Assembly (NCBI GenBank): GCA_003344405.1
Contig: NOWV01000158.1
Location: 124,001-181,406, forward strand
Reading direction: 5' to 3'
DNA: 57,406 nt
DNA from: Trichoplax sp. H2
Lineage: Eukaryota
In this document: positions 1,900 through 53,892 of the stretch, one piece after another
Position numbering within the stretch: position 1 is the stretch's first letter
Layout of the letters: every line of letters begins with the position of its first letter
Notes under the pieces: generated by a model
What the model was told of the DNA's origin: nothing
The model's input: the letters and a program-made list of their open reading frames with translations, nothing else
Database searches by the model: none
Position numbers and translations under genes: made by a program

Positions 1900-3998
1900 A
1901 TGGACATGGAAAATCTTCCAGAAATACAAGTACTGAATCAATCTGGTAGTGGTACTGAATCGAAAATTACTGTTACATTGTATCAACTGGTCAACTGGTG
2001 CAAAATCAACATCGCTTTAGCAACTATTATTATTATTACTGGAATATTTTCCGTAAATTTGCCAAATTCATTTGGTCTCTACACATCAGCTATAACTAAA
2101 CTTGCTCATTGCTTTTGGGTTGGAGGACTGGTAAGTTGTCATTCATATCGAAAAAATTATAATATGTAACAACAGTTTGGGATAGGGACAGTCGTATCGG
2201 CTTTGTTAGTACAACTTGTGAGTATTCCATAATCTAAGTTTGCTGTATAACTTTCTCTTAAGTATGTCATACACGATTTAAATTAATTTTAAACTACTTT
2301 ATAAATATTTCATTGTACGCTTTAATATTACGTACTTTTACTGGCTAGTTGTAATTAACATTGATTGTATTCGAAGTAGTCATACGTGAATAAGCTCATT
2401 TACGAAAGATTATTTTATAGCTTAAAGTAAGGTTTTACCTGAAATGAAATTTGTAACCGAAACGGTAGTTTGATACCATTGGTATTTCCAATTTAATTTT
2501 AATGCGATATTTTAGTCCCTTATGTAAAGTAGAATAAAGACTTGCCAAAACCGATACAGTTTCATATATCAATGTATGGAACTTGAATGGGATTTTCACA
2601 ACCTTGATAGTTGAAAATAATTAACCGTTTCTGGTCGTTATATGATTTTAAGATCTATTTGAACTAAATGCACTCGCATTTTAATCGTATAAATGATACG
2701 AATTACGCTGACTACGATAGTATTAGCTATCATAATTACGTCTATGAAGAGTCGTCGGAATGTGCGGATTACGATTAATTTAGGTTTTTATTTTATGATA
2801 CCAAGGAATCAATATAGCATAGCAGGAAATATTACTGTGAATGTAAAATCTGACAAAGGAAGAGAATGATCGATTAGACTAAAATAAATCTTATTGAATT
2901 AAGCTTCTAGGTTCTTAACTTTCGTCTTGTTATATGCTAGACTCAAACTAGTAATCATTGCACATTATTCAAGGTATTAATTTAAAGAAAAATATAAATC
3001 TGGGACATTTAGAGTTGCTTTAACTTAATGATGTTCAAAACAGTGATTGATACGCGCACAGTTAGTCGATAGTAAATAATCTTATGTATGACCTATTTAC
3101 TTAACTAGCCTTTACTGCAATCATCAAAAATTTATTAACAAAATATTTAAATTGTTATTAATCATTATTTATGTGATTTTTTGGTTAGACCGTCGTTTTT
3201 AGCCTTTATGGCATTTTAGCTTACAGAAACAAAGAATTTTCGGAGTTGAAGGTTTGTATAAGCTGATTGCATAACATTTACTTGATACATACCGGTATTT
3301 TTATACTGTATGAGTGTGAAAGTATGATGAATTAAAAATCTCTAATACCATGCTTAGATACGGAGAAGATATAGTAAAACTATACTCAAAGAATTGAAAA
3401 TACTTTGTTTATATATATTTCAAATATCATTTTTAAATGCAGGCATCCATTCATGTAGCAATTGCTTCCATTAATATCATGGCTATCATCGGTGGATTTG
3501 TTGTTTTAGCATTCAATCTAGAAACCGTGATAAATTTACCTCATAAACCTAATAAAGACGGTACCGAATCAACAGTTATTGATGTTGTTACCGTGCAGGT
3601 GATCTCAGTTCTTGTCAGCGCCATAGTAATGATTATTTATACATTATTCCTCTACGGCAACGTAAAGTCTGTGCGAATGCATCATTACGTGCCAAGAAAT
3701 TTACTAAGTCGTCCAGAACACGACTTCAGTCATACAATGGTAAGGAAAAAAACTTATTCTGTACCTCTAGATGGATTAAGTTCATAGTCAAGATATTTTT
3801 ATATTCTTTTATATATAAATTAAAAATTCATGTCCAGATACCCAAGTTTTCAACTATGAATATATATATATGAGCGCTTTAAAAATCAGTTTGGCAAAGT
3901 CCTTACTATACATTTTCGAACTATTTGGTGACAAAGCATAGTTATTAGTTACTGATTTACTGTATTTCTATAATTTAATTTAGGTTTTTCCCATATAA
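1900..3998 (+). CDS. MS4A/CD20-like four-transmembrane protein, paralog 1 (~201 aa)
   Basis: Exons 1900-2130 (ends FWVGGL|gtaagt), 3189-3251 (63 nt, TVVFSLYGILAYRNKEFSELK), 3443-3739 (ASIHVAIASINIMAIIGGFVVLAF...HTM|gtaagg), and probable last exon 3984-3998 (VFPI*). All introns are GT-AG and phase 0. Four hydrophobic segments. The last exon is the least certain. Confidence 0.8.
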
Positions 3999-6411
3999 TA
4001 AATGGCCTTGCTAGCTTTATAGTGAAGATATAAGAGCAAATAATCAGTAAAATGGTCGTGGACTCTTCCAAGCATAAAAGCTGGTCGGTAAAGCATATTG
4101 GTGAATCGTGTATTGCTTCGACATATACAAATCGTCTAATAGCACGAAATGACATCGCCTGGAATATTTGGCCATTGCATAGAGGGCTAATAGTCAAAAT
4201 TCACTGCTTTGTGTAATCGTTCGTTGCTAAGATAGCAGTAGCCATGCTCTATTGTAGGAACAATTAGTTTGACAAAGCATATTTATCATTACCCGTACTA
4301 GCGGCTTGAACGACGATGTTTTACCAGTTAAAAGAAATACCCCATTACTAGTCCGCGTACTTCTTTATTGGTATAAATCTAGTTATAGTTATAGTGTCTT
4401 TCATTGGAGAACTATAAATCATCTGTGTGACATGAACTTGTAGCAAATGAAATATCTCTTTTTCATTTATTATATTATCAAACCATAATCTGTATCCCTA
4501 ATGGTGGATATTGCTATAAATTTTGGTTCTATGCATTCTTTCAAGGCTTACAGGGTTATTTCTTTCTTGTCTACAATCATAACAGCTTTGATCTACGAAC
4601 TGATTGAATTGTACTACGTCATTACCTATTTCATTATCATCACTTCATTCATGTCTCAAAATTTTACTTCTAAATATTGAGATTTTAATATCGATTTTGT
4701 ACTAGTAATTGACGATTCAATCATGTTTGATCAGTAAGGGCATTAAAGGGTGCTATTCCATTGGCATCCTGCAAGCATCAAATCCAAAAATATGATATAA
4801 GACTGTCGTGCTATTCCTGTTATAATTGCAGCCACTGTGCTTAGTTCAATGCTGTTAAAAAGTAGGTGATACTTCTAGTAACTTTGCTATACAGCAGAGA
4901 ATGCCAGATGCTGCAAAACAGGAGATCACATTGCGTTACCAGTAATAAAATATTGCAGTATTTACGAATAGGCATTACTTGTGATAGAAATTTGACTATG
5001 CTTTCTTTATGTGAAGCTTTTCTTTAAATCATATAGCACCATTCTCGTACTTTAGTCTGTTAGGAACTTGCTGGTAAAGTAGTATACACATAATGTTGGC
5101 TTAATTTTGTACAATAAGCGTACATTCATTTGTAGCATTTCTTGGTCACCTTAGCAGACTAGCCTATGTGGTATGTATTCTATGTTGTCTATGATATATG
5201 AAATACACCTTGTGGTTATAAAGGTTTTTTCGCGATGATCGAAAAAATTTGAATGTCCTTTAGCTTGGACCACTTAAGAATTGTATTATTTAAAGAGCAG
5301 CTTGTATGTGTCTTCTTCTGTTTCAGTTATAATTGTAAAAATACTCGATATCCTTACTAAGCACATAAACAATATTTTCAGCCGTGTATGCTTACATGAT
5401 AGTTTGTAAAATATCTTTAAAATGTATACCTGCCTTTTGCTGTGAAATTATAAGGTAGATGCCAAACTTTATGTTATGATTGAAGCTAGTATCAATTTCG
5501 ATATTGCAATTATGTTGTTTTCACGCTCACAGAAAATTTTAATTTTATCTGATGCTTAATTACGAGTATAACTCATATACAAAATTCTATGAGCCTATCA
5601 ATTGTATTATTTTTATTACTGTTATAAACATTTTTGTTTTCATCCGAGTTGTTTCATTGCCCTTTACCAGTGATCTATCAGAGACGGTTGGAAAAGGCAT
5701 CAAATTTACTCGTACTATATTGTTCTTACTGCAAGAATTTGAAAGTACTCTATATTATTTGCTTGCGATCAGAAGGTCTATCGAATTTCGTGAAGGCAAT
5801 TATTTCATGCATTTTGTATCGATACAACAATTTGTCTTTAATGAGAGGGTAAGTAGGCCGTATGTAGTATCAGGTTAGGACAGTAGAACAGATTGAAGGT
5901 ATTAATATTGTTTGATATCGTTAGCTGTTTGTTATTTTTTTTATCTTGAAAGTCACTAACTCAATCTTTTGTTACTATACTGTATATGTTGAGGGCGAAT
6001 GATGCAGTCAGCAGATTGCTGTTGTACATTTGTAGAAGGTATCTTTCAAATTTTTGTCGCAATAACGTAAGGCAAAACTGATTCAAAAGGTAAATAATAA
6101 TATCCACGAAGATGCGAGCGTAATTATATAAGCGCTATAAATTCGAATACGCGTCTTAGTAGTTGATTAAAATGGATGAGATTAAGTATTACTGTAAGGC
6201 CTTCCTATGCGTCATTCTATGCCTTTGTACTGCACCTTGGTTGAACACGGTACAAGACAATCCATGAAACTGTTTGTAGACAAATGCTTGTACAGTAAAT
6301 GATTTGAATCGAATGAAACATATTTCGTTTAATTCTGCTGATAATTAAAAATTGATTATAATTTATGGGTATCAATATTATAATACAGTATATGTATAAT
6401 AAATAGATCAG

Positions 6412-11651: not shown

Positions 11652-12897
11652 ATGTCTACATCAAAATCAACAACCGATACCATAGTTGCTGATACAATGG
11701 TTCAAGGCTCTGATGATACTGAGAAAGTAAAAGCTGTCCGAGGTATCATACGGAGACTACAGAAATACTGGCTGGTTGGTACTTTACTCGGTATTACCCA
11801 CTTCATTTTGGGCATTGTGGCAGTTGCTAATCCTTGTACGTTCGGCTCTCATGCCATTGGTTTGTCAGAATATGGGACTTGCTTCTGGCTTGCGGGAGTG
11901 GTAAGAAATACGTACATAGAAGTGCATGTCATGATCTATTATTTAAACCATAGAATAGCTGTAATACTACAATTTGAGTTAAATATATGAAGGCTTTTGA
12001 TACATAAATTGTATTATCTGAACTTTACTTGACAGTCAGCGTCTTCAGTACAATCAATTTGATTGTGTACTATTCTTGATACTTTTTGTGTAGGTAACTT
12101 TACTGAGTATCGTAGGATTCTGTATCGCCTTGACAAGAAAATTTACGGAAAGAAATGTATGAGCTGATTTTAAAATTAATCATCTCTGAAAAATTATCCA
12201 TCGAAAATTTATATAAATAATATAGATTACTTTTCCTAATGGTACTAGCAACCTTATACGTAAAATTTAGCGTTATACGTTAAAGCGTTCAATTATTTTT
12301 ACGTAAGAATCTTTTCCTGCTTATTTCATATTTTGATGGTTATCCTTCATTTTGCCATCAAATTCTTTATGTAGTAACTGCTCATAGATATAAACAGTTT
12401 GTCAGAATATATCTTATGTGTATTTGATGTAGTAAGAACTGCATGACCGGTATTTTATTATTATAATCTAACCATGGTAAAATTTATATCAATGGATAGA
12501 TTAAAATTCATGGAGCTATGGCCGCTTTGGGAACTATTATGACTATCGTAGGATATGTACTATTGGGAATTAATTTAACAAAACTGCTGGATTTAAAGAA
12601 TGGTCAGGCTTATATCGTAAATTCATCCTGCACTGTAGCCGTAAGCCTAATTAAAACGTCGTCCATAATTATCACCCTTGGTTTATTTATTGTCGTTACA
12701 ATCTACCTGATAATATGCGGATATACACTTCAGTCCTATTACTACACCTCGGAAGACCTAATCAAACTCAGTAAATCTGGATTGCCTGTTCAGGTAGGCA
12801 GTATTTATATTAGCTTTAAGTATTTTCAACTCAAATAAGAAGTGATGGTGAATGCCTATAAAGTTACAATCAGATTCTTTTACTTTAATAGGTGTAA
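11652..12897 (+). CDS. MS4A/CD20-like four-transmembrane protein, paralog 2 (~203 aa)
   Basis: Exons 11652-11900 (LLGITHFILG...NPCTFG...YGTCFWLAGV|gtaaga), 12094-12156 (63 nt, VTLLSIVGFCIALTRKFTERN), 12500-12793 (IKIHGAMAALG...GLPVQ|gtaggc), and probable last exon 12892-12897 (V*). Confidence 0.8.
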
Positions 12898-14438
12898 ATT
12901 ATGAAGAAATATTTTAAGATGACGTTGATAATAACTTTATTATAACATGGGCTGAGATGTTCGAAATTTCGAGATTTATCAATATAACGAGTATTTGATT
13001 GTTCGATAACCATGGAATATTAGTATAAATTTTTTATAGAAATATCGTTGCAGCCAAAAAATAAAAATTAGGCTGGTACACTAATAATTATAATGAATTA
13101 ATATTATCACCGCAGTAATATTTCGTTATTAAGTTAAGTTATGCAGCTAATTAATGTTTAGGGTTAGTATTGTTTAGTTACTTTTTTCGGAAAATTTATT
13201 TCCGTGCCTGACTAAAATCGACCGTGTAGTTTAAAAAGGATTGTATACAGTATAATACATTAGCATATTATGACTTACCATGCAAATACCTGATAAATTC
13301 CTTTTCCCATGGGTTGAATAAAAGTATTGCAGGAAGTTAATTATGCTTGATATTTTCTATAGATTTATGCCAGACGTTTTAGGTTGTGATCTTTACATGT
13401 ATTTTTATGATTGTTTCATTTCGGAATCGTACTCTGAGTCTTTTCTGTCCTTGTTTATGTCTTTATCCTTGATATTTTAGTTCTGTTTATCTTATGTTAC
13501 TTCCATGGCTATTTTATCTCATGGTTCGCCATTAAAAGTAAATTCTGATCTCTGAATCTTCCTTTTATTAACTGGTATTGTGTGACTCCGTTTTCTGAAT
13601 TAGATTTATTCTGTATAATTATGCACGATACACTGTGCAAGACCATAAGGTAAAACTCTGCTTTGAGCATCTATGATCATGAGGATAATTTACAGATACC
13701 TTGAAGTATTTTTGGTTCTGGTCAGCCTTTTAATAGTTGATTAAATAGATTATAAAATTTTGACATACTCGTATATTAAGAAAAACTGCTCAGAAAAATG
13801 GTAGCTAATTTGGTAGACATATATTAGTATCACTTCATTATTGCTTTTGTGGTGTAATAGCCCTCCATGATTATCAGTGGACTTGTCGCGATATACTGTA
13901 ATTCAGCATTGAGATAATTATCATTAGTGGCCTATATCATAATATTGTCAATGCAAGCAATATATTACCCTCGTAATACAGTAGTTCGCTTACATACACG
14001 ATTATTATGGTAGTGCTTCGTTTCCTTCTTACCAGATTTAAAACAGATGTTAAAAGAATACAGAGATTAGGTTGTGAATATTATGCAATATTCAGTAAGT
14101 GTGAGACATCAAACCTAACATCGATTTCTGAGTTTCGTTTTGTATTCCCGTAAAGTTATTCTAGGACTGCCTCAATAACTTATCGCGAATGATTATAAAG
14201 AATGTGGATTATTGTAGAATATCACACTCTAGTCATCAATTATACAGTATATCATTTTCTAATACCTCAGTCTGTTCAATGAGGAAATGAAATTGTCGGG
14301 TTTCCTGTACTGCTAGAGTAACAGCTCTGTATGTTCCGAATATATTTTTAAGATTTTAAGCAGAGCTGTGATATATACCAATCACGAAATTCCAAATTTT
14401 AGAAAAATAAGGGCTTTATTGAATCTTATACAAAGATT

Positions 14439-18710: not shown

Positions 18711-20360
18711 ATGTCTACGTCTACGCGACATGTAAATATTCCAAATGATCACGAATTTACTGAGAATAGGTCTACTGTGTCATCGATGAACAACCTTAAA
18801 GCACTTTGCTTAATCACTTACGCGATTGCCTTAATCCAAATTGCTCTTGCTATCTCCGGACTTATACTTCCTTGCACATTTGGGATCTACATCATCAGTT
18901 TCAACCGGTTTGGTAATACCTACTGGATTGCAGGGCCGGTACGTTCTTTATGTGCTTTGTTGTTATTCGCTGGATAGATTGATAATATCATAATTTGCAA
19001 TATTAGTTGCAATATAGGGATTTTATTAATTTCCTTCGAGCTAAGATTTAAAAATTTTACGTTGGCGCGATTAAGAATCAAATCTTATTTCTAAACCTAG
19101 CCAATGCACCGAGGATGAAGCACGTTGAATATTTATAATATCAAACTGCTTGAACCATATCTAACGATTGCGTTGTTTATAGGTGCTTCTCTATACCTTC
19201 TTAGTTGGATCTACAATCCCCAAAAATAATTCTGGTATGAATAATGTAAGAACATTATCATATAATGGCAAATACAGTAACTTTTAATAATGCATATCGT
19301 ACCCTTATATTGAGTATAATTATCTGGCCGAAAGTATCATACATTAATTGTCTTAATCGAATGGATAACGGTTTAAAGGAACACTTTTAAATATAAGAAA
19401 TTCTTATATGATCTTAACAGCACTTGCAGTCGGCATTTATTTAACTTATCCCCTTTAATTTACATGATTAGTATTGTACAAACTTTCTCATATGTGTTTT
19501 AGTCTTGAAACATGGTGAATACTCGTATTTAATTTCAGGACATGGTAGATTAATTTACTGCATAATGTGTTTCTTATGTAGTTGTAAGCATAATTCTCAT
19601 ATGGTTGAATTCTATAAAAATAACATAACAATTATCTTATCAATCTGATACGCTACGAATTGATTATTTCCCCCAAAAATATTTTCTGCAAAATAGTTAT
19701 AGCAAGGTGCAAACATGTATTCGTATAGTGCGGCAATAAGCGCTGCATTTTGTAATAGCATAATTCCAAAGTGTTCTGTCCTTGATTTAAATCTTTCTAG
19801 ATATCATTTATCAAGATGGGAGCTTTTCTATGTGCGTTATGCATAATAGCCGGGTTTGTAATTTTAGGTCAAACTCTAAAGGTAGCTGGCTTTCTAATAG
19901 CGGATTTAGATTCTGACGATATCTTTCACAGCGACGTTTGCAAAATACCCTTGAATCAAGCTTATACGCCTGCCTTGCTAGTCACTATTCTACAACTCTG
20001 CATTCATATTTTTTATTTTGGAGTCTGCATCAAGTTTATAAGGATAAGTAACAGTCCAAGTGTATCGCTAGAGAGAAATTCTGGCCATAGCTTACTTATG
20101 GTAATGCAACCTAAGCTACCAATTATTAATTTTTTATGATCATGATCTTAATATGGACAGTTAATGATTATCCAAAGTTTGGTTAGCATTAACAGCGATA
20201 TTATCATTATTATTTATATCTGCAGATACAACCACTACCAGAAGAAGCTCCACCCTATGAATTTTGCGATAATACTCAGTACAGAGCTGCATTCGCAATA
20301 GATAAAAGACTGCCAGAAAGTGATATAGATCAAACTCACGATAACAGTTCAAGTTTGTAA
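18711..20360 (+). CDS. MS4A/CD20-like four-transmembrane protein, paralog 3 (~241 aa)
   Basis: Exons 18711-18938 (IALIQIAL...LPCTFGIY...FGNTYWIAGP|gtacgt), 19183-19245 (63 nt, VLLYTFLVGSTIPKNNSGMNN), 19801-20100, and 20226-20360 (IQPLPEEAPPYEFC...SSSL*). The last exon is supported by similarity to the last exon of paralog 5. Confidence 0.88.
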
Positions 20361-24883: not shown

Positions 24884-26344
24884 ATGGCAACTTGCAGTCG
24901 GAAATTAGCAAGTAGTATTAAAGTACTTTGTGGCATTGCTGTATTATTTAGTTTAGTCCAGTTGGTAATTACCGCTATTAGCTTTACCAAACCTTGTCCA
25001 ATCGGGCTCTATTTCACTAGTTACACTCAATATGGAAATGGTTTTTGGGTTGGAGGACCGGTAAGTTTATTAATCACTTCTGTTTATCTTTATTACATAT
25101 TTAAAAATCATGTTTATAATTAAAATAGTTTGAATACTATGGAAGTCAAATTGATTTGTTATAATTAACTAAAATTAGGTTATTGATACAGTATTAGATA
25201 CAGCAAAACTAATCGATTAGGTACTTGGAATAAGTTTCAAAATAATAAGCGATTATGTAGCTACTATCCTTGCTATTTTCTTTAAACTCTACGATACACT
25301 ACTAAAATTTAGATTCACCTATTTTAAATTGTTTGCAGATATTTTTATTATCCGCGTTTATCACTTATGTTGCCCAACACTCATACTTTTCTACAAGGAG
25401 GGTAAGGCATTAATTGTCTACATTATCATTACTGATTATATTCAGTCCAATAAGAACAGTTCAATATCTATAGATAATAGAAATTCTGATGTAATAGCTA
25501 CGTACTTTGCTATCTTTAAGTTCACGATACAATGATTGGGAGGTCCCCATCAAAGCCTTCACGATGTAATCCATTTCTGGAAATCTAATTTTCTTATCAT
25601 ATTTAAATCCGGTTACATTAGGTTGCTTGCGTGAAGGCGGCTGCATATTTATGCGTAGCATGCATCATCGGCGGAGTTGTGGTAGTTGGATTGGCTATAC
25701 GATCACTTGATGTATTACAGTCATACAGAAAAGTTATACGTTTTAATTGCGGTGTTTCTCAAGTTCCGATGTCACAAATCTATGGGCCATTTATAGCTAC
25801 ATCTAGTATGCTGGTTATTTTCTATGCATTCTATCTTGTACTTTGCCTGTGCATCATAAGAATAGATGGCCTCGAACTTGAAAGCATTAAAACTTCGATT
25901 CACATCGGCCAAGCATACTCGTACATGGTAAGCATGGTGTATTTTAAAACGAAATATTGATTTTCTTGCTAAGTGATACGTATTGCTGTAATTTTAAAAT
26001 AAGTTGATATGAAAACAATGAAATATTCAATTTGGCTCATAGCTAGTGCTTAAGAGTAGAAAAATAATTTTAAAAAGATATTCTACCAAAGTTACTGAAT
26101 GTGCCATTACTATCAATTAATTTAAATGAATTTTTGTTCGCATTTGTAAAATTACGGTATTGCTTTACTTTTGATGCTTATTTATTAGTTAGTTCTTGTG
26201 TTTATATTATAAGTATTGATAGGGTTGTAAATTTTATTCTTTTGTATGGAATAATTATCATGATATGAACTATGCATTTAATGTTTCTAGAAGAAGCAAC
26301 CCATATCTTCGTACGAGAATAGCGCTCGAACAAGTAATACATGA
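24884..26344 (+). CDS. MS4A/CD20-like four-transmembrane protein, paralog 4 (~199 aa)
   Basis: Exons 24884-25060 (KPCPIGLY...YGNGFWVGGP|gtaagt), 25339-25401 (63 nt, IFLLSAFITYVAQHSYFSTRR), 25622-25927, and 26291-26344 (KKQPISSYENSARTSNT*, where ISSYE matches IPSYE of paralog 5). Confidence 0.86.
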
Positions 26345-33182: not shown

Positions 33183-35151
33183 ATGGCTACAACTTCATCT
33201 CCAGTGGCAATCAATCCACCAAGTTATCAAATTATTATAACTACTCTTAATAATAGAATGCCAGCAAATCGCATTAAAGTATTTTCCTTCATAGCCATAG
33301 CTATCGCCATAATTCAAATTGCGGTGGCCGCGGTTGGATTGTCTGAGCCTTGCCCAATTGGTCTGTACGTCTTAAGCTTTGGTCATTATGGAAATAGTTT
33401 CTGGGTAGCAGGACCAGTAAGTTCACTGAATCTATTGGCATATTTTAAACTTTTATTGCAATGAATATCATAGTTTTACTAGTATAATTGGAAACAATCA
33501 GATAAGGATAAGTTTTCTACCGAAACTGTATAATTTGAATTATTGGAGTGAATTAGCTTTCTGGACAGTACTTTTATCTTGAATCTAGTGCTAACATACA
33601 GACATAAAATATCTTTCTGTAAATGCACATTCACCTATACATTATAAGCACCTATGATGGTATTTCTGCAAGCATTTGGTTGACTAGAACACTTCTCTTT
33701 AAAAAACCACCTGAAAATTGCTATTTTGCTTATAGATATTACTCTATGCTTTGGCGGTTGGCTGCAGTGTGGATCGGAACAACCTTACGAAAAATAGGGT
33801 AAGGCTGTGCGACTTTAAAATATGCTTATATTAATATGTTTTATAAGTACATATTGGACTGAATAATTACTACCAGTAGTTGTGCAATAACGAAAACTAT
33901 TTCACATGAATATTCGGTAAAATTTCTAAAGCATTATTTTGCTACCAGATATACTCTTTGCTGCTGTTACCGTACCTTAATAAGATATTAGCAGAGCAAT
34001 TTTTCGATTTATCGTTTAAGAAATTTATAGATCATTGCAGCAAAAGAAATATTTTGCGCTAAAATCATTTTTAATTCTAATTTGGTCATTTTAGATAGCT
34101 AATATGAAGATAGGCGCGTTTCTATGCGTGCTTTGCATCATTGGAGGATTTGTAGTATTAGGTCTGACTATACGCGCGCTTTCAATTCTGTCGGTTTACT
34201 CTGACCACTTCCATTTCGATTGCGGCACTCATAAAGTTTCTGTAAATGAAATATATACTCCTGCTGTTTTAACAACAACCGTCCACTTTGGAATCTACAT
34301 ATTTTATTTTTCGTTTTGTATGTGGATTATGAGACTGAATAACGATTTCTATCCAAATATGTTCGCCGCACGATCTAGTGGTCGTAATACTTTTGTGGTA
34401 AGACAATATTTTGAGAAATTAAGTGAAAAATATATATTACAAGGTCTTCTACCTATATTAATTGTATCATTAAAGTGTTACTTTTTTAAATGCTAATCAG
34501 AAGTAATTGTCATAGAATTAAATTTCTACTTCAAGTTAGGAATTAGTCACTATTATAGTTTGGAAGTAATAGCCTCAAATCCAGAAAACAGTCGCTATTT
34601 ACAGCTGATTAAGTCTCACATATCAATTTAGTATTGGAAATAATCATAATTTGAAAGTGAGAATTATTGTTAATACATGCAGCAGTCAGTATGCCTATGA
34701 ATCTTTGATTTTATTCTGCTAGCAAATCAATAAGGCTAGAAATAATCACCATGTACAATTAATAAATTAAATCCGCAAAATCGATCTTTCTTTACAGTTA
34801 ATTCATAATTAGAAAACGATTTACGTATTTCTTATTATAGAAAATTAATAATCTACATACAAGTATGAATTCATATTAAGTCTTTACAGCTGATAATTGT
34901 GATTGCTAATTACATTGTCTAATATGTATCTATCATAAAATAATTCAAATCACAACATTTACACTTCCAGCAACACATTCTATTATCTGTAAATATTAAA
35001 TCTATGTAAACTTGTTTGCATACAATCTACGTAGGTTCAACCACCAGCAGAAGAAATTCCTTCATACGAGCAATGTATTGCAAAAAGTAAAATACTGACG
35101 AAAGATGGTAAATTAGCTGCAATAAATGTGCCTCAGACAGCTCAAGCATAG
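33183..35151 (+). CDS. MS4A/CD20-like four-transmembrane protein, paralog 5 (~238 aa)
   Basis: Exons 33183-33416 (IAIIQIAV...EPCPIGLY...YGNSFWVAGP|gtaagt), 33736-33798 (63 nt, ILLYALAVGCSVDRNNLTKNR), 34095-34397, and 35035-35151 (VQPPAEEIPSYEQC...TAQA*). Confidence 0.88.
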
Positions 35152-37488
35152 TGTTAAAGCGGCAAAATCTACCATCTGTCTTATTAAAGTAAATTATACA
35201 CGATAAATCACCTTTAATTGGATTATAATTATAGATGCTGGGATATTGACGTAAACAGTAATAGTCTCTTGTTTAATTTCTGGAATTTCTGCCTTTATCT
35301 CATTATGATTTAAGGTGTTCATCTCAATAAAATCACCTGCTAGTAAAGCGCTAATGAAATCTGCCATAATTGATAAAAATATACTAGTTACGTTATCTAA
35401 ATCTGAGAGAATCAATCATTCACACCTTAGAATTAAAATTATATATAAAACGCGCATCTATTTCGGAATTTCTTTTAAAACTGGACTAAGTAGTAAGTGT
35501 CATATCAGTTTGCGTGTACAAAGCCTATTTTACCATTTTTTGACGGTTCATTTTGGATCTGTATACTCATAAATATTCTAAGTTACGTTGGTCATAGCAA
35601 TATTACCAAATACTGCAATTTATAAATAACTCTTTTCATTTTCGAATTCGTCAATATTTAATTCATGTTGATATTGAATTGGAAAAAAGTGCATTTTATG
35701 CATAAATATGCTGGTACCTGTTTTCTAGAATTTTACACACTATAATTATTTATATGTGGCCGTTATAATAAACTATCTTGGAAACTATGATTTTAATGTT
35801 ATTGAATATATTTTTGTCTTGGTTAATTTGATATTTAATCTAGACAAGGAGTTGGGATTGGCACGTTTTATTATAGTCCTTTATTATATATGATGGCATT
35901 TAAAACAGAATAATTTACTTGAGCTCCTTATTTGACTGCCTTTAGCTATAACTTTGTAGCTAGGCCACCTAGATTAGGAACAGGTACTTCAAAAAGATTC
36001 ATATTAAAAAATGTTAGTAATAGCCGCAGAATTTTTAACTTAAGTCAACCGTATGGAGTCCTAGAACTGACCCCTCTTTACCCTTCATTATTTCTTGCCG
36101 TTAAGAAATATTAAAATTTCATGTAGACATACCCTACAATTAGATAATCGCTCACAAGATGTTTGGCATCTTGTGCATATATATCATTTTGAAAGGATTT
36201 CCAAGTGTTGGATTGGCTGTCTCAAACTTAATCACGATATCCGAATCTAATACAATTATTGTTTGCGCTGAAGGTTTCCTTCCTTTCATCAATTCTTGGA
36301 TACTGCTAGTCTCATATTATAGTTAAATTTAGTTTATTACTTTAGGCTGATAAGATGGGCATTTAAATCGTATACTTTGGGTATGCAGTATACAGCCATC
36401 ATTTTTGCACAATGTTAAGTGCTCATCGTTAGTAGCAGGTATGTTATCATGACGATAATGGTCAATTCGGAGTTTATGATTTCTTTATTATGTTTTCATC
36501 CAGAACATGGACTATACTATGTTGTAACATTGGCTCTTTAGGCTTAGCTATTAGAAGGAACTATCAAATATCAATCCAGTATTGGTAGCATTGAAGATAC
36601 TTAACAAACTATAACCAAAAAAACTAAAGATGTTAATCAAGATAAATTTATTTAGTAAGGGTAAGCGTCGGATTGGTATTCGGTTTATCATATAACATAA
36701 CAGTGAGATGTGAATTGCTGCCAGTTCTAGTGTATATTTTAGCTACTTCATGAATTTTTGTTAAGGACTTTAAAATTGAAATTGATGTAGAATGTTGTCA
36801 AATTCACAAACTATTGTAAATTTGATTTTATATAGGGAATAATTAGGAAATTTTTATAATATTTGTGTACTTGCTTCACAAGAGACAAATTTATCGATGT
36901 TGAAGCTAGTAAATTTGGAGTTTCGACTCTAAAATCAAATCTCAATTTTTATAACTATACGTGTAAACTAGAGTAGTAATATTAAAAACATAATAAATTT
37001 CCTAACTTTGCCGACAGAATAAATGCTAACTATCCCACAAATTGTAGCGACTAGTTTAACTAATAACTTTAAGTTTTTGAAGCTATCAAGAGCATTTTTC
37101 TTTTTCAAAAAAATTAAGATCATAATCATTCCTTATATAAATATTATGTAATGATTTAACGTTCCTTAAAATCACTAATTTTCTACTTTTCGTTGGTTTT
37201 AATACGAGGGTGTCACAAAACAGCTTTGCAACAAGATAACGCAATATACGATCAATAAGTCAGTTCCTTTAACCACGTATCAAGGAACGATATCTGCACT
37301 ATCACGAACACTTTTGCTCTTCTAGCAGACTACACAAAGACTTAAACGCCTCGTATTTTACGTTAAGCACCAAGTTGGAGAATTCTCTTTATTTCACGAT
37401 ATACTGCATTTATATACTATTCCTCAATAGTTCATGAGTCATAGTTAATACAATTAAACTGGGAATCATTTACTAAATTAGATATTAA

Positions 37489-40640: not shown

Positions 40641-40771
40641 CTTTCAAAATAATTCAATGACCGATGATGATGTACTAGTTCATTAATAGCTTATTTCTCG
40701 ATTTTTATCATTTATTAAACGCCTATGGCCAAAGTCAAGGATGATCAGTCATCTGAATTCGGCGGAAAGGC

Positions 40772-42490
40772 ATGGATGGAACCTTACTAGGAAAAGATCT
40801 AAGATCTAGCTGCTGTCTTCTGGCTACTACTGCTGTAAGTCAAATTATCACTGCTATAGTAGCCTATGCTCTGCCATGCCAAATTGGTTTATATGCTCCG
40901 TGTTTGACAGCGCAATGGAATACTTTCTGGGTTGCGGGACCCGTAAGTCTAGTATAAATAATCGATCAGGTCTCTAATATTTTTATTATTCATAAGCTAA
41001 AATTATTAGTGGCTTGAAGATCTCTTCGAAGTTATCCTATCGCCTATTCTGATTTGATGCTAATCAGGGAAATGCTGATGATTGCATCAAATCTACTATT
41101 TAATATTGTGTTCACACAAAATTTAGTTTTACACTTGAAATAGCTATTAAAATGAATCTTAACTTCAAAATTGATGAATTGAAGTGCATTGTTTCTCTTG
41201 TAATAACCATAGGTAATGCTATTTGATCTATTTGGCTTTATAATAAACAAAAACAATAATCCAAGCATAGGCAATGTAAGAGCGGAATAATTCCATCATT
41301 ATATAGAGTGAATATTAAATTTTACTGGCGGATGACTTAGTATATTATATTGCTAAATTTTACATATTTATGAGTCCTTTAATGCAACTGCAGTGCTAGT
41401 AGATACCGCTACATAAAGTCTAAATTTGGCCAATTCTTCAAGTTGTTTTACTAACCGCGTAAATTTATAAATATAGTTTTAAATGAAATTGAATAATTTC
41501 AATCTCATATTTACGATTACGCTGATGTAAGGAGATTATTCCAGTCTTCTTTATCAATATATATATAATATATATCAGTTTTTATTACAGTAAATTTAAC
41601 GAAATTAATTTAAGTTTAAACCATTTCAAAGAATTGGAATAATGTCATAGGAGCATTTCAGTCTTGCTACGGACATATCAGAATTTGCCACAGAACATGA
41701 ACTTGTATACAAAAATAAAGCTATATATAGTTTCAAGGAAATAACTAAAAAGAGAATTTTATAGCAACATTGCCCATGTAAAGGCATTTAAGATATTATG
41801 ACCTATACTGTACTATAATTAGCATAATCTGTTTACAAACATTTCGTATTCGGATGTGGAAATTGCTAGAATATGTACTAATATGATCGGCTACATATGT
41901 TAAAGTTAGCCTTCTCAATACTAATTCCCACTTACAGCATCCTAGCTATACTCGGTTATCTTTATTTTTTTCACACCACAAATTAAATGATTTAATTCTA
42001 TTTTACTACCATTGCAGGTTACATGGCACAAGATTATAGGTACCTTCTGTATATTTACTGAAATTGGGGGATTGACCGTAACTAGATTTACTATGTATTA
42101 CATTATCGGAATAGCTAGTTCCCAAGATAATTTTAATTGTCCTGATAATATTAATTTGAAAAGTGTTCGAACCTCAGCTATTTTGATCACCAATGCACAA
42201 TTTATCATCTATCTATATTAAATCATCGTTTTAATATGGGTTATGAAAACTTATAATTTGGGTCCAAGTTCTTCAATTAGAGAGACTGGAAGCGATGGCA
42301 TCATCAGGGTAAGAGTATGCATCTCTAGTAGGCATATAAATTAGTGATATACTCTCCTTCTATAGTAAATTATTTTGGTTAAATGATTTTTCAAAACATA
42401 TTAACTAATATTCTCGCAATACAACAAAATTTCATTTTACAGCCGCATCGTTTACGTGAGAAAGATTTGCAAGCCAATAATGATAATTAG
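40772..42490 (+). pseudogene. MS4A/CD20-like paralog 6, probable pseudogene (premature stop in TM4)
   Basis: Exons 40772-40942 (LPCQIGLY...WNTFWVAGP|gtaagt), 41213-41275 (63 nt, VMLFDLFGFIINKNNNPSIGN), 42018-42308, and probable 42443-42490. An in-frame TAA at 42219-42221 sits where paralogs 7 and 8 have Tyr (IYIYY/LYLYY). The frame continues as IIVLIWVM... to a normal phase-0 donor at 42309. An out-of-frame upstream ATG at 40725 suggests an additional exon-1 frameshift. Confidence 0.78.
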
Positions 42491-43467: not shown

Positions 43468-44507
43468 ATGTCTGGTAGCATTTATCCTGCTACTACCTCC
43501 AAAAATACGGCCCACTATTGCAACCATTGTAGCTATAAAATACAAGATCATACATTTGCACTTACCACCATGACTACGATCCAAATTACTATCGCTGCCA
43601 TTGGATTATGGTTGCCATGTCGATTTGGTTTATATATATCCAGTCTCAATTTTTATGCCAATACATTTTGGGTTGCTGGGCCGGTAAATGAGTACATAGT
43701 TAAAATGCTGCCTATTGATATTATTATTCTATGCATGAACAGAAAGTTTTGACGTTGATAATTCAATCATCTATTCTACAGCATTGCCTATGTTCATAAC
43801 ATACGAATAATTATTGTATACGGTACCTTAAATCTATGCAGTAATATAATATTACACAATCAATTAGCAATAATAACAGGTATAAAATCTAGTTTTATTT
43901 AATGCTGCATTTTAATTTGTTCATTAGCCTTGTAGATAAAAATGCCTATATCATGTAGATCCTATCCGATAATAAATAGTTTCATAATCTCTAAAATCAC
44001 TAGAATAATATAGCAGATACGATTGAATTTCACTTCTTGACTGAATAATTTTGATTACAGACGCTAGCATTTAGCATTATTAGCAGTATCATCAATGCCA
44101 ATGATAAACCTGACTCAAATTGGGTATGTATTCCTAAAATATTACCGAATCGAAATACAATTTCTTCCCATTTACTAGCCCTAACCTTAAAATTCTCAGT
44201 ATGGACTATCGTTAATAATATATTGTAGGCATGGTTTCACATCATTACTGGTACCGTGTGCTCATTTTGTACATTTGCAGGATTAATAACATTAGGATTC
44301 GCATTTTTCGATATGGTTACATTAATTGGCCCAAACAGCAATTTGAAGTGCTCTACCAACGTGGGTAGCTCGGGATTAACGCAAGTAACGCTTCCTGCTC
44401 TTATGGCAAATGCAGGCCAAATAATAATCTACATTTACTATGCTTTTGCGATTAAAGAAATTATGGCCCCCAATTTTAAGCAGGAGGCTACATCGGTGGA
44501 TATTTAG
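43468..44507 (+). CDS. MS4A/CD20-like paralog 7 (~185 aa as assembled; C-terminal tail apparently lost by frameshift)
   Basis: Exons 43468-43683 (IQITI...LPCRFGLY...YANTFWVAGP|gtaaat), 44061-44123 (63 nt, TLAFSIISSIINANDKPDSNW), and 44229-44507 ending in TAG. A donor at 44513 and a candidate exon 4 at 44707-44736 (VYAKFEEDF*) remain but are out of frame. Confidence 0.78.
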
Positions 44508-45974: not shown

Positions 45975-46295
45975 TTATCCGTTTATATAAGATCTCTTGA
46001 TCTAAGTGTCAGCTAAATCATTGATCTATGCAATGGATTGATTTACGCTAAGCAATCGTCTTTTAAGCCTTAATTTCTTGTCTCATAAATTGACTTGCTA
46101 GGAAAATGTACATTTATACCAACGCATTTATACAGAACATCTCTTCTTTTTATCTGTTTATATAAAATCTCTTGATCTAAGTGTGAATTCAATCACTAAT
46201 CTATATATTCGATTGATTTACGCAACCAATCGTCTTTTAAGGTTTCATTTCTTTTCTTATATGTCTATCTGCAAGTATAGTGTACATTTATACTA
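45975..46295. repeat. Two-copy tandem duplication, period ~176 bp (partial third copy near 46470)
   Basis: ATCTCTTGATCTAAGTGT...GATTGATTTACGC...CAATCGTCTTTTAAG...TGTACATTTATAC occurs twice. Confidence 0.82.
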
Positions 46296-47949
46296 CGATG
46301 ATAACCTCACTTAATTATTAATTTAACGCTCTTCTAACTGTTATCAGAATTAATTTGCCCAATAGTTAAAGGATAAAGATGTAGTTATTCAACATGAATC
46401 TATGCCTGGATCTAGAATTTAGTCTAACACACATTAAGAAATTTCTACAGATGATGTCAATCTATTTATTTTATAAAAGCTATTGATCTAAGCTGATGAG
46501 CATATCTTCTAATCTTTCTACCCTAATTTGGCCTTAATTTAGGCTGGATGTCACCAGAATCTTGCTTGCATTTGCCTCCTCTGCGTCTTTGCAAGTACTG
46601 TAATTTTAGTTGTGATTATACATTATAAGAGCACTGATTCATTTTCCCAAGACGCTTACAGTCAATAGTCCTAATGGACAATTCACTTAGAAGCAATTAC
46701 AAGATTCCGCCATTCCGGTTACGATACTACAGTTTATGATTTATATATATGTTTATACTATATATGGTTTATAGCGTTTGCTATAACTTCTTACAGATCT
46801 ATGATAAATAGTACCATGACAAGAAACTTACAACGAAACATCCAACAATGTAAGTAATATCGAATTTGATTATAAAGTAGGAAAATAAAGCTTTCATTTT
46901 AAGTTCATTGTCGGTTATAATTTCAAAAGGCTGCTATAGCAAGTGCTGTTGCATATTTTAGAATATTAGAGATATTTAATTTTACTAAGTAACTGCATTA
47001 ATCTAGTTACTCCATTTATTTATAGACGCAGCCCTTGGCGAAAGAGAATCATGAAAATTTATTGGATAATAATGATACCAAACATATAGCTGTTAACGTA
47101 TCTTAGATAAAGGTGAAATCAACATTTTTGTCGGCTTGATATTATGCAAATACTAGCATTTCCATAAACCTTCGTGATTTTATACTATTTATGATATGCA
47201 CCTACAGCGATAATTTTAAGTTTCCATGAGTGAAAAGTTGTTTATTGTATAAATGAGTAAGTGCTTTTGGCAAAGACTTCTTATAAATAGGAACTCCTTT
47301 AGGAAGATTTTTCTACGATCATTTTCTATGCATATTCAATGAATAATTGTATATTGATACGTTAGTAGGTTAAATGATGTCATTGTCTGATTGTTTATCA
47401 ATTTTATGAGATTTAGTTTAAAAATTTAAACATTCTAACTTGCTAGTTTTCTGCATGTATAATAATGAATGTTTGAGTTACTTTTACGTGTCTGAGAATT
47501 TATTTCTGTCACTTTCAATAGTACAAATTTGTGTTTCTTATCCAGTATAGAATTAATCGCTTAATTGAAGATTGGATTTCTTATGGATTACTAGTTCGTT
47601 ATCTAGCGACTGAATAACATTAACCTTTAAAGCATCATGCATACAACTCTAATAGTTTAATTTAAATTTCCAAGAATGTTGAATGATTTGAGATCCAGTA
47701 TTAAAATATCGTACAATAATTAATTCATCAAGTATGAATTGAAAAAAGGTTTCTGTGTCTGAACAGTGATAATCAGCCTTAGAGTAACTTTTAATGTCTA
47801 CGCCATTTAACCCGCCCATAAGAACCTTAAATACGATATTCTAACTACTCTTCCCTTGCCCACTTTCTGTACTGTGTTTGAGCTGATAATACTTATACTA
47901 AGAGCAGGACATGATTTGGCCTGCAATTCTCGCTTCATTAAAAGGTTGG

Positions 47950-49484: not shown

Positions 49485-49900
49485 ATTAGTATTATTGGCA
49501 AACTTAAATAGATATAAATTTTTATTAAAATTTTTGCTGATTTTAGTTGACATTCAACTATCATGATAAATTGGCAATAGCCTATCCTTGAGCTACGGTA
49601 ATATATTGCAATAGTATGCCTGTATCACGATTTAACATCAGATCAAGTTATAATTGCATTTATTTTTATACGATAGAAGGGTGTTCAGATTACTTGCTAG
49701 GCTAGTGCTATTGGTTAACATAAATAGATATCAATATTGATTAAAATCATTGTTGATTTTAGTTGGCGCTTAACTTATCATGGTAAAAAGGTAGTAGTTT
49801 ATCATTGGCCTACCTAAATATATAGTAATAGGATACTTATATTACGATTTAATATCGGATCAAGCTGTAATTTCTTTTAATTTTATACGATCGAAAGGTG
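49485..49900. repeat. Two-copy tandem duplication, period ~216 bp
   Basis: TAAATAGATAT...TGATTTTAGTTG...ACGATTTAA.ATC.GATCAAG...TTTTATACGAT.GAA.GGTG occurs twice. Confidence 0.82.
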
Positions 49901-52521: not shown

Positions 52522-53892
52522 ATGTCATCTATAAAGCCTGTCTTAAATGTTCCTGTTAGTAATACAAATGTTATTGTAACTCCTTCATTAATATCATTTC
52601 GAAAACTTGGCATACAGTGCGACATCACTATTGCTCTGGCATTGATTCAGATCATCGTTGCAATAATCGGATTAAGTATATACTGCCCATTTGGTATATA
52701 TATTCTTAGTTTCAATCAATACTTCAATACATTTTGGGTAGCAGGACCGGTAAGCAGAATTAATATCGCCAACTACCTTATGATGGCTTTATAGTCAGTT
52801 ATCATATTAGATTCAAAGGATAAGTAGGGTATTCAAAACTAAGATTAAAAGCTGATGTTGTATATTTTCAACAGCAAGTTTAAATGAAATAGATTTAGAA
52901 ATAGAGCAAATTTATTTGTAGTCTATGGCTAATTGATGAATTTATCAGTTTATTCTATGATGCCATTAAAATGATCGCCTTTTATGCTTCTAGATGCTCG
53001 TACTTGGTGCTGTAGGCCATTTCATAAATAGAAAAAGCAATCATTCAGAAAGAGATGTAAGAAATAATGCATTAATCTGTCGTAAATTCATCGAACATAT
53101 CTAATTATGCGAGCAGAAAAGAAGCAGTAGCTGCATTAGATTAAATTAATTATGAAGGATATTAGACTATACTAATCGGCAAATTATAAATTTGATCATT
53201 ACGGCTTCTCCATTGAAATTTCCACTTTCATGCCCTAGTTAATTAAATTACTGTAAAGTTTCGGCTATCTATTTCAAGTAATGTAACAAATCGCTTTGTA
53301 TTTAGGTAATTGAAGCGATTACTTTATTAATTAGAATTCATGTCTATCATTTTATTTTGTTATCTTCAATTAAAATCTGTTCTTAAATTATTTCGGTTAT
53401 ATACTTTTTTACTAGATCCTAATTCAAAAAATCCTCTCTATTGTTTGCTTACTATGTTTATTCGGAGGATATGTGATACTGGGAATTACTATGCGTATAT
53501 TAATCAACGCAGAAACATCTATTAAAGTTATATGCGAATTCGATCAAGAAATAAAGTCTGAAACACTTCAACCAGTTGCGATGGCGGTTGTGATAGTCCA
53601 AATATGCTTGTATCTCTACTACCTCGTCATCAGCAGTTTAACGAAGAGAGCTTTCACATACCGCCTAAGTGTGCTTATGGCTACAAGTAGCCAAACATTG
53701 ACCGTAAGGATAGACTACCTTTCATAGTAATATTATAAAATTTTTAGAGAGTGCAATACTATAGGCCAATTATTAACTTTGGTATACGTTGTATAGATCT
53801 AACGTTGTTTACTGATCTGATAGGTTCCATCATCATCAAATCCTAGACAGTCACGTAGTGAGACTCCTCAAAAAACTCTTCCTGTTCATTAG
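52522..53892 (+). CDS. MS4A/CD20-like four-transmembrane protein, paralog 8 (~215 aa)
   Basis: Exons 52522-52749 (LALIQIIV...YCPFGIY...YFNTFWVAGP|gtaagc), 52994-53056 (63 nt, MLVLGAVGHFINRKSNHSERD), 53416-53703 (ILIQKILSIVCLLCLFGGYVILG...), and 53824-53892 (VPSSSNPRQ...LPVH*). Confidence 0.86.

What the first reader, a model, noticed from the sequence alone, without database searches (positions are those of the whole stretch)
1900..53892. Hidden tandem array of eight divergent MS4A/CD20-like tetraspan genes: a candidate lineage-specific chemosensory or recognition receptor cluster
Seen: eight co-oriented genes with the same exon plan, four hydrophobic segments each, and a shared motif (IQI...PC.[FI]G.Y...[GAF]N.[FY]W[VIL][AG]G[PLV]); no other clear gene lies in the 57 kb. 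Established: MS4A/CD20 proteins (Pfam CD20) are ~200-300 aa tetraspans with TM1 like GLFHIALG..L.IP.GIY and TM2 like YPLWGG. They form a tandem cluster in mammals, where some act as non-GPCR chemosensors in necklace olfactory neurons and others in immune Ca2+ signalling. Paralog 3 (ALIQIALAISGLILPCTFGIY) and paralog 2 (LGITHFILG) align by eye to CD20 TM1 as I recall it. Inference: this is an independent expansion in an invertebrate, possibly an early-branching animal, with a receptor-repertoire pattern of conserved TMs, variable loops and birth-and-death turnover. Function is not shown by the sequence.
Basis: partly seen in the sequence, partly recalled or inferred. Interest (0 to 1): 0.9.

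Follow-up and report, generated by a model that had tools for sequence, protein, structure and literature searches.

The report
Placozoan CD20-like four-helix membrane gene cluster
This stretch of Trichoplax DNA carries a real tandem cluster of eight very divergent genes for small four-helix membrane proteins found so far only in placozoans; their predicted shape most resembles the CD20/MS4A family, but no sequence test confirms that kinship and their function is unknown.

Summary
Eight + strand genes share one exon plan, and six of my eight models match database proteins exactly or within two residues. All named hits are uncharacterised Trichoplax adhaerens or Trichoplax sp. H2 proteins. RNA contigs from three studies confirm all three introns of gene 5.

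I also found two degenerate exon-3 relics and a stop codon inside helix 4 of gene 6, so gene turnover is real.

The CD20/MS4A reading is only partly supported.
- **Sequence tests fail.** Pfam CD20 appears for 1 of 14 proteins, at E 0.5 and 10.8 bits against a cut-off of 27.9. Profile searches of PDB sequences find no MS4A. A search of 1.84 billion representative proteins gives only 15 hits, all family members or fragments.

My best reading is a placozoan-restricted, remote CD20-like family of membrane adaptor proteins. The chemosensory role is untested.

The parts
1906..3787 (+). Gene 1 (210 aa): exons 1906-2130, 3189-3251, 3443-3787. The only paralog lacking both loop cysteines.
   Evidence: Model identical to P0016 = TrispH2_009451. 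GT/AG at all sites. Weak Pfam CD20 hit, E 0.5.
11652..13555 (+). Gene 2 (226 aa): exons 11652-11900, 12094-12156, 12500-12793, 13481-13555.
   Evidence: One substitution against P0017 = TRIADDRAFT_57757. GT/AG at all sites. The nearest named language-model clusters are CD20.
18711..20360 (+). Gene 3 (241 aa): exons 18711-18938, 19183-19245, 19801-20100, 20226-20360. The C-tail carries an acidic proline-tyrosine motif.
   Evidence: Identical to P0002. GT/AG at all sites.
24884..26344 (+). Gene 4 (199 aa in my model): exons 24884-25060, 25339-25401, 25622-25927, 26291-26344.
   Evidence: Exons 1-3 match P0003/P0006. The frame of exon 4 follows P0006 and gives a tail like that of gene 5. The two database models disagree on the tail.
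33183..35151 (+). Gene 5 (238 aa): exons 33183-33416, 33736-33798, 34095-34397, 35035-35151. RNA contigs continue to about 35787 (3' UTR).
   Evidence: Two substitutions against P0001 = TRIADDRAFT_57759. All three introns are joined GT..AG in RNA contigs of 3 of 4 runs laid (X9, X6, X7; three studies).
36144..36585 (+). Relic A: an exon-3-like piece (helix 3, loop with Cys, start of helix 4) at 36144-36323, then a weak helix-4-like piece at 36436-36585 in another frame.
   Evidence: Family HMM against 2572 reading frames of the window: E 2e-4 for 36144-36323 (HMM positions 98-140), E 2 for 36436-36585. Sequence inspected. No exon-1 motif lies nearby.
40772..42490 (+). Gene 6, probably decaying: exons 40772-40942, 41213-41275, 42018-42308 with an in-frame stop at 42219-42221 inside helix 4, and tail exon 42443-42490.
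   Evidence: The stop replaces a Tyr of T. adhaerens P0015. The H2 model P0019 skips exon 3. RNA contigs of 2 of 4 runs (X6, X7) join 40969>41213 (a donor 27 nt downstream that retains a stop), 41275>42018, 42039>42269 and 42308>42443.
43468..44507 (+). Gene 7 (185 aa): exons 43468-43683, 44061-44123, 44229-44507. No tail exon found.
   Evidence: Identical to P0008. GT/AG at all sites.
46543..46771 (+). Relic B: exon-3-like pseudogene piece, with helix 3 at 46543-46665 and helix 4 at 46691-46771 in a shifted frame.
   Evidence: Family HMM: E 0.002 (HMM positions 100-124) and E 0.014 (146-168) among 2572 reading frames. Inspected.
52522..53892 (+). Gene 8 (215 aa): exons 52522-52749, 52994-53056, 53416-53703, 53824-53892.
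   Evidence: Identical to P0005. GT/AG at all sites.

Best explanation
The window, from Trichoplax sp. H2 or a near-identical strain, holds a tandem array of eight paralogous genes plus two relics. They belong to a family known so far only from placozoans.

Each gene encodes a protein of about 185-240 aa with four membrane helices. The first outer loop is very short and conserved (P-C-x-[FI]-G-x-Y). The second outer loop is hypervariable, about 15-25 aa, and carries one cysteine. Both tails are variable and are inferred to be cytosolic.

I read the family as a very remote, lineage-specific branch of the CD20-like superfamily (MS4A, TMEM176, sarcospan), recognisable by fold but not by sequence profile.

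By analogy with its closest solved look-alikes, Fc-epsilon-RI beta and sarcospan, the most likely mode of action is as a small intramembrane adaptor. It would pack against partner membrane proteins and control their stability, trafficking or signalling. The variable second loop would be braced to the first by a disulfide, and proline-tyrosine motifs in some tails would serve as docking or sorting signals.

Shown: genes, splicing, restriction of all named hits to Trichoplax, fold prediction and its ranking, turnover. Inferred: homology to CD20-like proteins, membrane topology, the disulfide, adaptor function.
For: - **Gene models and expression:**, and RNA joints.
- **Taxonomic restriction:** phmmer of P0001 against 1.84 billion representatives gave 15 hits at E<=1e-3, all family members or fragments. 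The profile search of 5.8 billion proteins gave 6 hits, all named Trichoplax.
- **Fold model:** AlphaFold2 with the family alignment gave pLDDT 77.4, with the helical core above 90.
- **Foldseek against PDB:** ranks 1, 2 and 4 are Fc-epsilon-RI beta. The best is 8y81_B with E 0.032, probability 1.00, TM by target 0.73 and 163 alignment columns. CD20 appears at ranks 10, 19 and 39.

|---|---|---|---|
| 8k7t_B | Fc-epsilon-RI beta | 15.0 | rmsd 3.2, 156 of 160 residues aligned |
| 8yvu_F | Fc-epsilon-RI beta | 14.0 | |
| 8yt8_S | sarcospan | 13.3 | |
| 6y92_A | CD20 | 12.5 | |
| 9c3c_n | chain n of the native dystrophin-glycoprotein complex entry (I take it to be sarcospan; the listing does not name the chain) | 12.4 | |
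| 6vja_C | CD20 | 10.7 | |

- **Language-model features:** for P0001 the best named clusters carry PF04103, at 0.86. For the 21%-identical paralog P0017, the top three named clusters score 0.90 with 181-186 shared features, and 27 of 30 hits fall in the CD20 set.
- **Pfam:** a colinear sub-threshold CD20 hit on P0016, residues 34-121 against profile positions 5-84 of 156.
- **Loop cysteines co-vary:** 7 of 8 genes have both and gene 1 has neither.
- **Conservation by region:** loop 1 39.9%, helix 2 36.3%, loop 2 10.8%.
Against: - **No significant sequence link to any known family.** Pfam CD20 is listed for 1 of 14 database proteins and 0 of 16 exon translations, at 10.8 bits against a cut-off of 27.9.
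- **PDB sequence searches:** three family profiles and two single proteins find no MS4A, CD20 or sarcospan chain at E<=10.
- **Foldseek:** no match reached E<=0.001.
- **Language-model scores of 0.86-0.90 are leads only.** Shuffled proteins reach 0.9 in 4-10 of 100 cases.
- **The adaptor function is pure analogy.** The proline-tyrosine tail motif is seen in only 3 window genes (3, 4, 5) plus P0004, and only P0004's C-tail and gene 5's N-tail fit the canonical PPxY form.
Confidence: 0.6

Rival explanations
1. An unrelated, placozoan-born four-helix membrane family. On this view the likeness to CD20-like proteins is convergent: any compact bundle of four helices of about 160 residues with short loops would resemble them.
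For: - All sequence-level tests against known families are negative.
- Only 15 hits appear in 1.84 billion representatives.
- Designed helical bundles score within about 2 Z units of the top hits.
- Zuccolo et al. 2010 (PMC2826416, passages read) warned that short transmembrane similarities between MS4A and invertebrate proteins also occur in unrelated membrane proteins.
Against: - CD20-like chains, which are only a handful among 48,161 representatives, take 5 of the top 6 ranks and cover the whole chain colinearly.
- Two paralogs only 21% identical to each other independently land on CD20 clusters by language-model features.
- The one sub-threshold Pfam hit that spans several helices in register is CD20.
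Confidence: 0.25
2. A lineage-specific chemosensory or recognition receptor repertoire: the first reader's functional reading, which is compatible with a CD20-like fold. The hypervariable second loop would bind ligands.
For: - Tandem array, old divergent paralogs, pseudogene relics, and a second outer loop that is the least conserved part (10.8%).
- Mammalian MS4A proteins including CD20 are reported as olfactory receptors (PMC11026480, listing and abstract only).
- Ascidian MS4A genes are reported as clustered, lineage-expanded and variable in their outer regions (bioRxiv 10.1101/2022.08.15.492342, passages read).
- Strain differences in the gene 5 coding sequence: of 6 listed differences at 5 codons, 4 change the residue and 2 are silent. 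The numbers are tiny.
Against: - No ligand, cell-type or signalling evidence of any kind.
- The loop is short (about 15-25 aa).
- Only eight genes are in the window, plus seven further family sequences from elsewhere (P0004, P0011/P0012 and five fragments), which is small for a receptor repertoire.
- Gene clustering and variable loops are also typical of non-receptor tetraspans.
- Gene 5 is present in whole-animal RNA contigs of three studies. This neither supports nor excludes restricted expression.
Confidence: 0.1
3. Members of the MARVEL-domain family (MAL, physin, gyrin, occludin), as the UniRef name of P0017 suggests.
For: - UniRef calls the cluster of TRIADDRAFT_57757 'MARVEL domain-containing'.
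- Exon 3 of gene 1 has a weak Pfam MARVEL hit at E 0.18, 12.3 bits against a cut-off of 32.8.
Against: - Pfam MARVEL is not listed for any of the 14 database proteins scanned at E<=10, P0017 included.
- MARVEL structures rank below the CD20-like ones: rank 12, and synaptogyrin at rank 42.
- No MARVEL row was listed for P0017's language-model neighbours; 27 of the 30 hits fall in the CD20 set.
Confidence: 0.05

Closest known systems
Fc-epsilon-RI beta chain (MS4A2), solved in 8k7t, 8yvu and 8y81
   Different: Identity is only 11-16%, with no detectable sequence homology. The placozoan proteins have a conserved Cys in each outer loop. Whether they sit in a receptor complex is unknown. From memory, MS4A2 has an ITAM in its tail; none is evident here.
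CD20 (MS4A1) and the mammalian MS4A gene cluster
   Different: Pfam PF04103 is not met: 10.8 bits at best against a cut-off of 27.9. The second loop here is shorter than I recall for CD20 and has one Cys, probably pairing with loop 1; from memory, the CD20 disulfide lies within loop 2. The intron positions of MS4A genes were not compared.
Sarcospan (8yt8 chain S; 9c3c chain n, which I take to be sarcospan)
   Different: Identity is 7-8%. Sarcospan is a single-copy gene in vertebrates (recalled), not a diversifying array.
Ascidian and amphioxus MS4A expansions (bioRxiv 10.1101/2022.08.15.492342)
   Same: Lineage-specific, clustered expansions in invertebrates, with the most variation in the outer regions (passages read).
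   Different: Those genes are recognisable MS4A members by sequence. The placozoan family is not, and it lies far outside the chordates.
MARVEL-domain proteins
   Same: Four-helix membrane proteins of similar size. An automatic UniRef name and one weak exon hit point this way.
   Different: Pfam MARVEL is not met, and both the structural and the language-model rankings are lower than for CD20-like proteins.

Membership tests
CD20-like family (Pfam PF04103: MS4A, TMEM176, sarcospan) | Match to the Pfam CD20 profile at or above its gathering score (27.9 bits) | tested here: not met
   Listed for 1 of 14 database proteins (P0016, E 0.5, 10.8 bits) and 0 of 16 exon translations, all scanned at E<=10.
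CD20-like family (Pfam PF04103: MS4A, TMEM176, sarcospan) | Detectable sequence similarity to solved members (CD20, Fc-epsilon-RI beta, sarcospan) | tested here: not met
   Three family profiles (A1, A2, A3) and two single proteins searched against 177,635 PDB sequences at E<=10 returned no such chain.
CD20-like family (Pfam PF04103: MS4A, TMEM176, sarcospan) | Four-helix membrane bundle with the fold of solved members | tested here: met
CD20-like family (Pfam PF04103: MS4A, TMEM176, sarcospan) | Very short first outer loop and longer second outer loop | tested here: met
   In the model, loop 1 spans about 6 residues (54-59) and loop 2 about 15 (134-148) with a small hairpin. The alignment shows the same layout in all 8 genes.
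CD20-like family (Pfam PF04103: MS4A, TMEM176, sarcospan) | N- and C-termini in the cytosol | tested here: inconclusive
   Lys+Arg counts are 1-3 of 13 in the inner loop, 0-1 of 6 in loop 1 and 0-3 of about 15 in loop 2. This is compatible with the topology but weak, and no topology predictor or experiment was available.
CD20-like family (Pfam PF04103: MS4A, TMEM176, sarcospan) | Profile-profile (HMM-HMM) match to PF04103 | not testable with these tools
   No CD20-family sequences or profile could be obtained, so hhalign had nothing to compare with.
CD20-like family (Pfam PF04103: MS4A, TMEM176, sarcospan) | Intron positions shared with vertebrate MS4A genes | not tested
   The intron positions of this family are mapped, but no MS4A gene structure was available for comparison.
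MARVEL domain (PF01284) | Match to the Pfam MARVEL profile at its gathering score (32.8 bits) | tested here: not met
   The only hit is on exon 3 of gene 1, at E 0.18 and 12.3 bits. It is not listed for any of the 14 database proteins.
MARVEL domain (PF01284) | Fold closest to solved MARVEL proteins | tested here: inconclusive
Tetraspanins | Large second outer loop with a CCG motif (recalled definition) | tested here: not met
   Loop 2 is about 15-25 residues with a single Cys in 7 of 8 genes and none in gene 1.
Claudin / PMP22 / EMP | Large first outer loop with a conserved W...C...C signature (recalled definition) | tested here: not met

The most novel reading that the evidence does not exclude
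Placozoans, which have no neurons, carry their own fast-evolving repertoire of CD20-like surface proteins whose hypervariable, disulfide-braced second loop senses chemical or biotic cues such as food, symbionts or conspecifics. If so, MS4A-type non-GPCR sensing, and the CD20-like fold itself, would date to before the placozoan-cnidarian-bilaterian split.
Probability: 0.1. Interest if true: 0.85.

Novelty: new variant of a known kind. Interest (0 to 1): 0.45.

Why it matters
These genes are annotated only as uncharacterised or hypothetical Trichoplax proteins with no Pfam family. I found no paper naming them or linking placozoans to MS4A or CD20-like proteins. The searches were made; supplementary tables were closed and may list them.

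A 2010 phylogenetic study concluded that invertebrates lack MS4A genes (PMC2826416, passages read). Later work describes MS4A expansions in ascidians and amphioxus (bioRxiv 10.1101/2022.08.15.492342).

A CD20-like fold family in Placozoa would push the origin of this superfamily close to the base of animals. It would also offer a compact, tractable array in a very simple animal for asking what the ancestral job of these tetraspans was: adaptor, channel or sensor.

If the resemblance is convergent, the locus is still a clean example of a taxon-restricted membrane gene family undergoing birth and death.

Tried and rejected
- **Pfam on single exons** and on 14 database proteins: nothing at any gathering score.
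- **PDB sequence searches.** The exon-1 profile hit only designed coiled coils through low-complexity helix similarity. The exon-3 and full-length profiles found nothing. Single proteins gave chance hits to ASA8 and NS2B.
- **Single-sequence AlphaFold2 model:** too poor to use (pLDDT 52).
- **ESM Atlas structure search** on the Atlas's own low-confidence model: unrelated bacterial rows with TM under 0.5.
- **Homodimer prediction** of the core of P0001: no verdict (score 0.00, controls not run). This is neither for nor against self-association.
- **Word-index homolog searches:** P0001 found only itself, and the family profile A3 added five more named Trichoplax proteins.
- **Own genome:** none is held.
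- **The listing of cluster members:** I cannot say whether P0004, P0007, P0009-P0014 are other loci of the same species or other placozoans. None of them maps to the window at 60% identity or more beyond the motif.
- **Earlier findings of this scan:** nothing.
- **Rfam, tRNA scan and Pfam on 18 other reading frames:** no further gene.
- **RNA contigs gave little or no cover over genes 7 and 8** in the four runs laid. This says nothing about whether they are expressed. Genes 1-4 were outside the 20 kb laid.
- **A weak intronless-looking similarity of gene 7 to 17126-17368** (tblastn E 0.59) was not recovered by the family HMM, so I dropped it as chance.

Full report
**What is in the sequence**

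The window is AT-rich (about 30-35% G+C) and has two 20-N gaps. Stop-to-stop reading frames on the + strand show eight pairs of related frames. In all 8, exon 1 ends in phase 0 directly after the last codon of the motif W-[VIL]-[AG]-G-[PLV], and the next bases are GTA. In all 8, a 63-nt exon 2 flanked by AG and GT lies in the following intron. It encodes the end of helix 2 and a short charged loop. In all 8, exon 3 begins right after an AG and encodes helices 3 and 4.

A fourth exon for the C-terminal tail exists in genes 2, 3, 4, 5, 6 and 8. Every splice site of the final models is GT/AG.

The long form of the motif occurs 8 times in the six-frame translation, always on the + strand, and in none of 100 shuffles. 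The short form occurs 8 times against a mean of 0.07. The pattern was taken from the data, so this is a consistency check rather than an independent test.

**Identity of the locus**

Exon 1 of gene 5 is 100% identical to TRIADDRAFT_57759 of Trichoplax adhaerens. The family profile finds only six proteins in 5.8 billion. All are named T. adhaerens (57756, 57757, 57759, 57760) or Trichoplax sp. H2 (TrispH2_009451, 009455).

My models, built from the DNA alone, compare with database proteins as follows.

| Genes | Agreement with database proteins |
|---|---|
| 1, 3, 7, 8 | letter-identical |
| 2, 5 | 1 and 2 substitutions |
| 4, 6 | database models differ in structure |

The H2 protein of gene 1 is identical to the window, while the T. 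adhaerens one differs. The window is therefore H2 or something very close to it.

RNA contigs from 3 of the 4 runs laid (three studies) join 33416>33736, 33798>34095 and 34397>35035, all GT..AG. These are exactly my gene 5 introns.

**Divergence and turnover**

Pairwise identity among the eight proteins is 17-38%, and neighbouring genes tend to be closest: 3-5, 4-5 and 6-7. Mean pairwise identity by region is shown below.

| Region | Mean pairwise identity |
|---|---|
| Outer loop 1 | 39.9% |
| Helix 2 | 36.3% |
| Helix 3 | 26.8% |
| Helix 1 | 25.2% |
| Helix 4 | 20.9% |
| Outer loop 2 | 10.8% |

Seven of the 8 genes have a Cys in each outer loop, and gene 1 has neither. This covariation suggests a loop 1 to loop 2 disulfide, which is an inference.

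A family HMM run over all 2572 reading frames of the window recovers every exon 1, 2 and 3. It also finds two extra exon-3-like pieces:
- 36144-36323, at E 2e-4.
- 46543-46665 plus 46691-46771, at E 0.002 and 0.014, with a frame shift between the two parts.

Gene 6 shows several signs of decay:
- It has a stop inside helix 4 where the T. adhaerens protein has Tyr.
- It has charged residues in helix 3.
- Its RNA contigs, in 2 of 4 runs, skip most of exon 3 and use a donor that retains a stop.

**Which family?**

Sequence tests are negative.
- Pfam finds nothing at a gathering score. CD20 (PF04103) is listed once among 14 database proteins (P0016, E 0.5, 10.8 bits against 27.9, residues 34-121 on profile positions 5-84 of 156) and never among 16 exon translations.
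- Profiles of exon 1, exon 3 and the whole family, and two single proteins, find no MS4A, CD20 or sarcospan chain among PDB sequences at E<=10.
- phmmer of P0001 against 1.84 billion representatives finds 15 proteins at E<=1e-3, all recognisable family members or fragments.

Structure and learned features point one way.
- With the 18-row family alignment, AlphaFold2 gives pLDDT 77.4. The model has four helices (28-53, 60-90, 97-133, 149-184) and a small hairpin in loop 2.
- Foldseek against 350,542 PDB chains ranks Fc-epsilon-RI beta (MS4A2) first, second and fourth (E 0.032-0.33, TM by target up to 0.73). CD20 is 10th, 19th and 39th. No match reaches E<=0.001.
- VIA-align against 48,161 representative chains gives the ranking below.

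|---|---|
| MS4A2 (two entries) | 15.0, 14.0 |
| Sarcospan (8yt8_S) and 9c3c_n (taken as sarcospan) | 13.3, 12.4 |
| CD20 | 12.5, 10.7 |
| Designed maquette | 12.8 |
| PRPH2 | 11.8 |
| Claudin-fold design | 11.8 |
| Synaptophysin | 10.9 |

- From my own knowledge, the AlphaFold2 weights predate all of these structures, so the model is not a memory of them.
- The ESM Atlas feature search puts CD20 clusters as the best named neighbours of P0001, at 0.86. For the distant paralog P0017 the scores are 0.90 three times, with 27 of 30 hits in the CD20 set. Scores at this level are leads only.

The UniRef label 'MARVEL domain-containing' on gene 2's protein is not backed by Pfam, by the fold ranking or by the feature search.

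**How it probably works**

Putting this together, I favour a remote CD20-like tetraspan (confidence about 0.6) over a convergent orphan family (about 0.25).

The closest solved look-alikes, Fc-epsilon-RI beta and sarcospan, are intramembrane partners of receptor complexes. The most conserved parts here are loop 1, helix 2 and the start of helix 3, which fits a conserved packing surface. The variable parts are loop 2 and the tails.

Genes 3, 4 and 5 and the out-of-window paralog P0004 share an acidic proline-tyrosine motif at the start of the tail exon. Gene 5 also has a PPxY-type motif in its N-tail. These could be WW-domain or phosphotyrosine docking sites, which is inference only.

A receptor or chemosensor role cannot be excluded, but nothing here tests it.

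**Literature**

- Zuccolo et al. 2010 concluded that invertebrates lack MS4A genes and warned about spurious transmembrane similarity (PMC2826416, passages).
- A membrane-proteome survey lists the CD20-like family among metazoan-specific expansions (PMC5620054, passages).
- A preprint describes 29 clustered MS4A genes in Ciona, with variable outer regions (10.1101/2022.08.15.492342, passages).
- CD20 itself is reported as an olfactory receptor (PMC11026480, listing and abstract).
- No paper held the Trichoplax locus tags. The only paper holding both 'MS4A' and 'Trichoplax' is an unrelated review, seen in the listing only.

**Verdict**

The placement in an early-branching animal and the birth-and-death pattern are confirmed. 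CD20-like kinship is plausible by fold only, and the chemosensory function is unsupported. This is a moderately interesting, taxon-restricted variant of a known kind.

Noticed in passing
window 37152-38485: Very high summed contig depth (380-3715 in the first bin) with many variant contigs, small indels and loose ends in all four runs laid. There is no Rfam, tRNA or Pfam match. It is probably a multicopy, transcribed repeat rather than a gene of this locus.
   Followed up: partly
window 14439-14975 and 21482-22306: Both 20-N gaps (14843-14862, 22057-22076) are followed by a 96-99% identical re-run of sequence lying 424 and 595 bases upstream (repeat families D3, D4, D5). These look like unmerged contig overlaps from scaffolding, not biology.
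   Followed up: no
window 14549-14770 and 55644-55865; also 14965-15198 and 48114-48347: A dispersed repeat is present as an inverted pair (222 nt, 92%) and as direct copies (79%). Depth peaks near 47824-48490 in the RNA contigs fit a repeat family.
   Followed up: no
window 992-1318 (- strand): A 108-aa reading frame has a sub-threshold Pfam hit to the N-terminal part of Exportin-5 (E 0.0099, 14.3 bits against a cut-off of 27). It may be a first exon of a neighbouring gene running off the left end of the window. Four nearby frames gave nothing.
   Followed up: partly
window 33357, 33386, 34320, 34367, 35146, 35148 (gene 5 coding sequence): Six differences between the window and the RNA contigs fall in five codons. 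Four change the residue (I59F in loop 1, H68Q, M175V, A238P) and two are silent. The count is too small to argue for selection.
   Followed up: partly
window 6456-6732, 16470-16662, 45974-46293, 49493-49900: Intergenic tandem repeats with units of 109, 97, about 175 and 217 nt. The 175-nt pair lies just upstream of relic B.
   Followed up: no
proteins P0004, P0011/P0012, P0007, P0009, P0010, P0013, P0014: These are further family members or fragments that do not map to the window. P0011/P0012 carry a long N-terminal extension of about 65 residues. Several fragments end exactly at the exon-1 boundary and read into the intron, as if called by a prokaryote-style gene finder on placozoan contigs. 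Their sources could not be looked up.
   Followed up: partly
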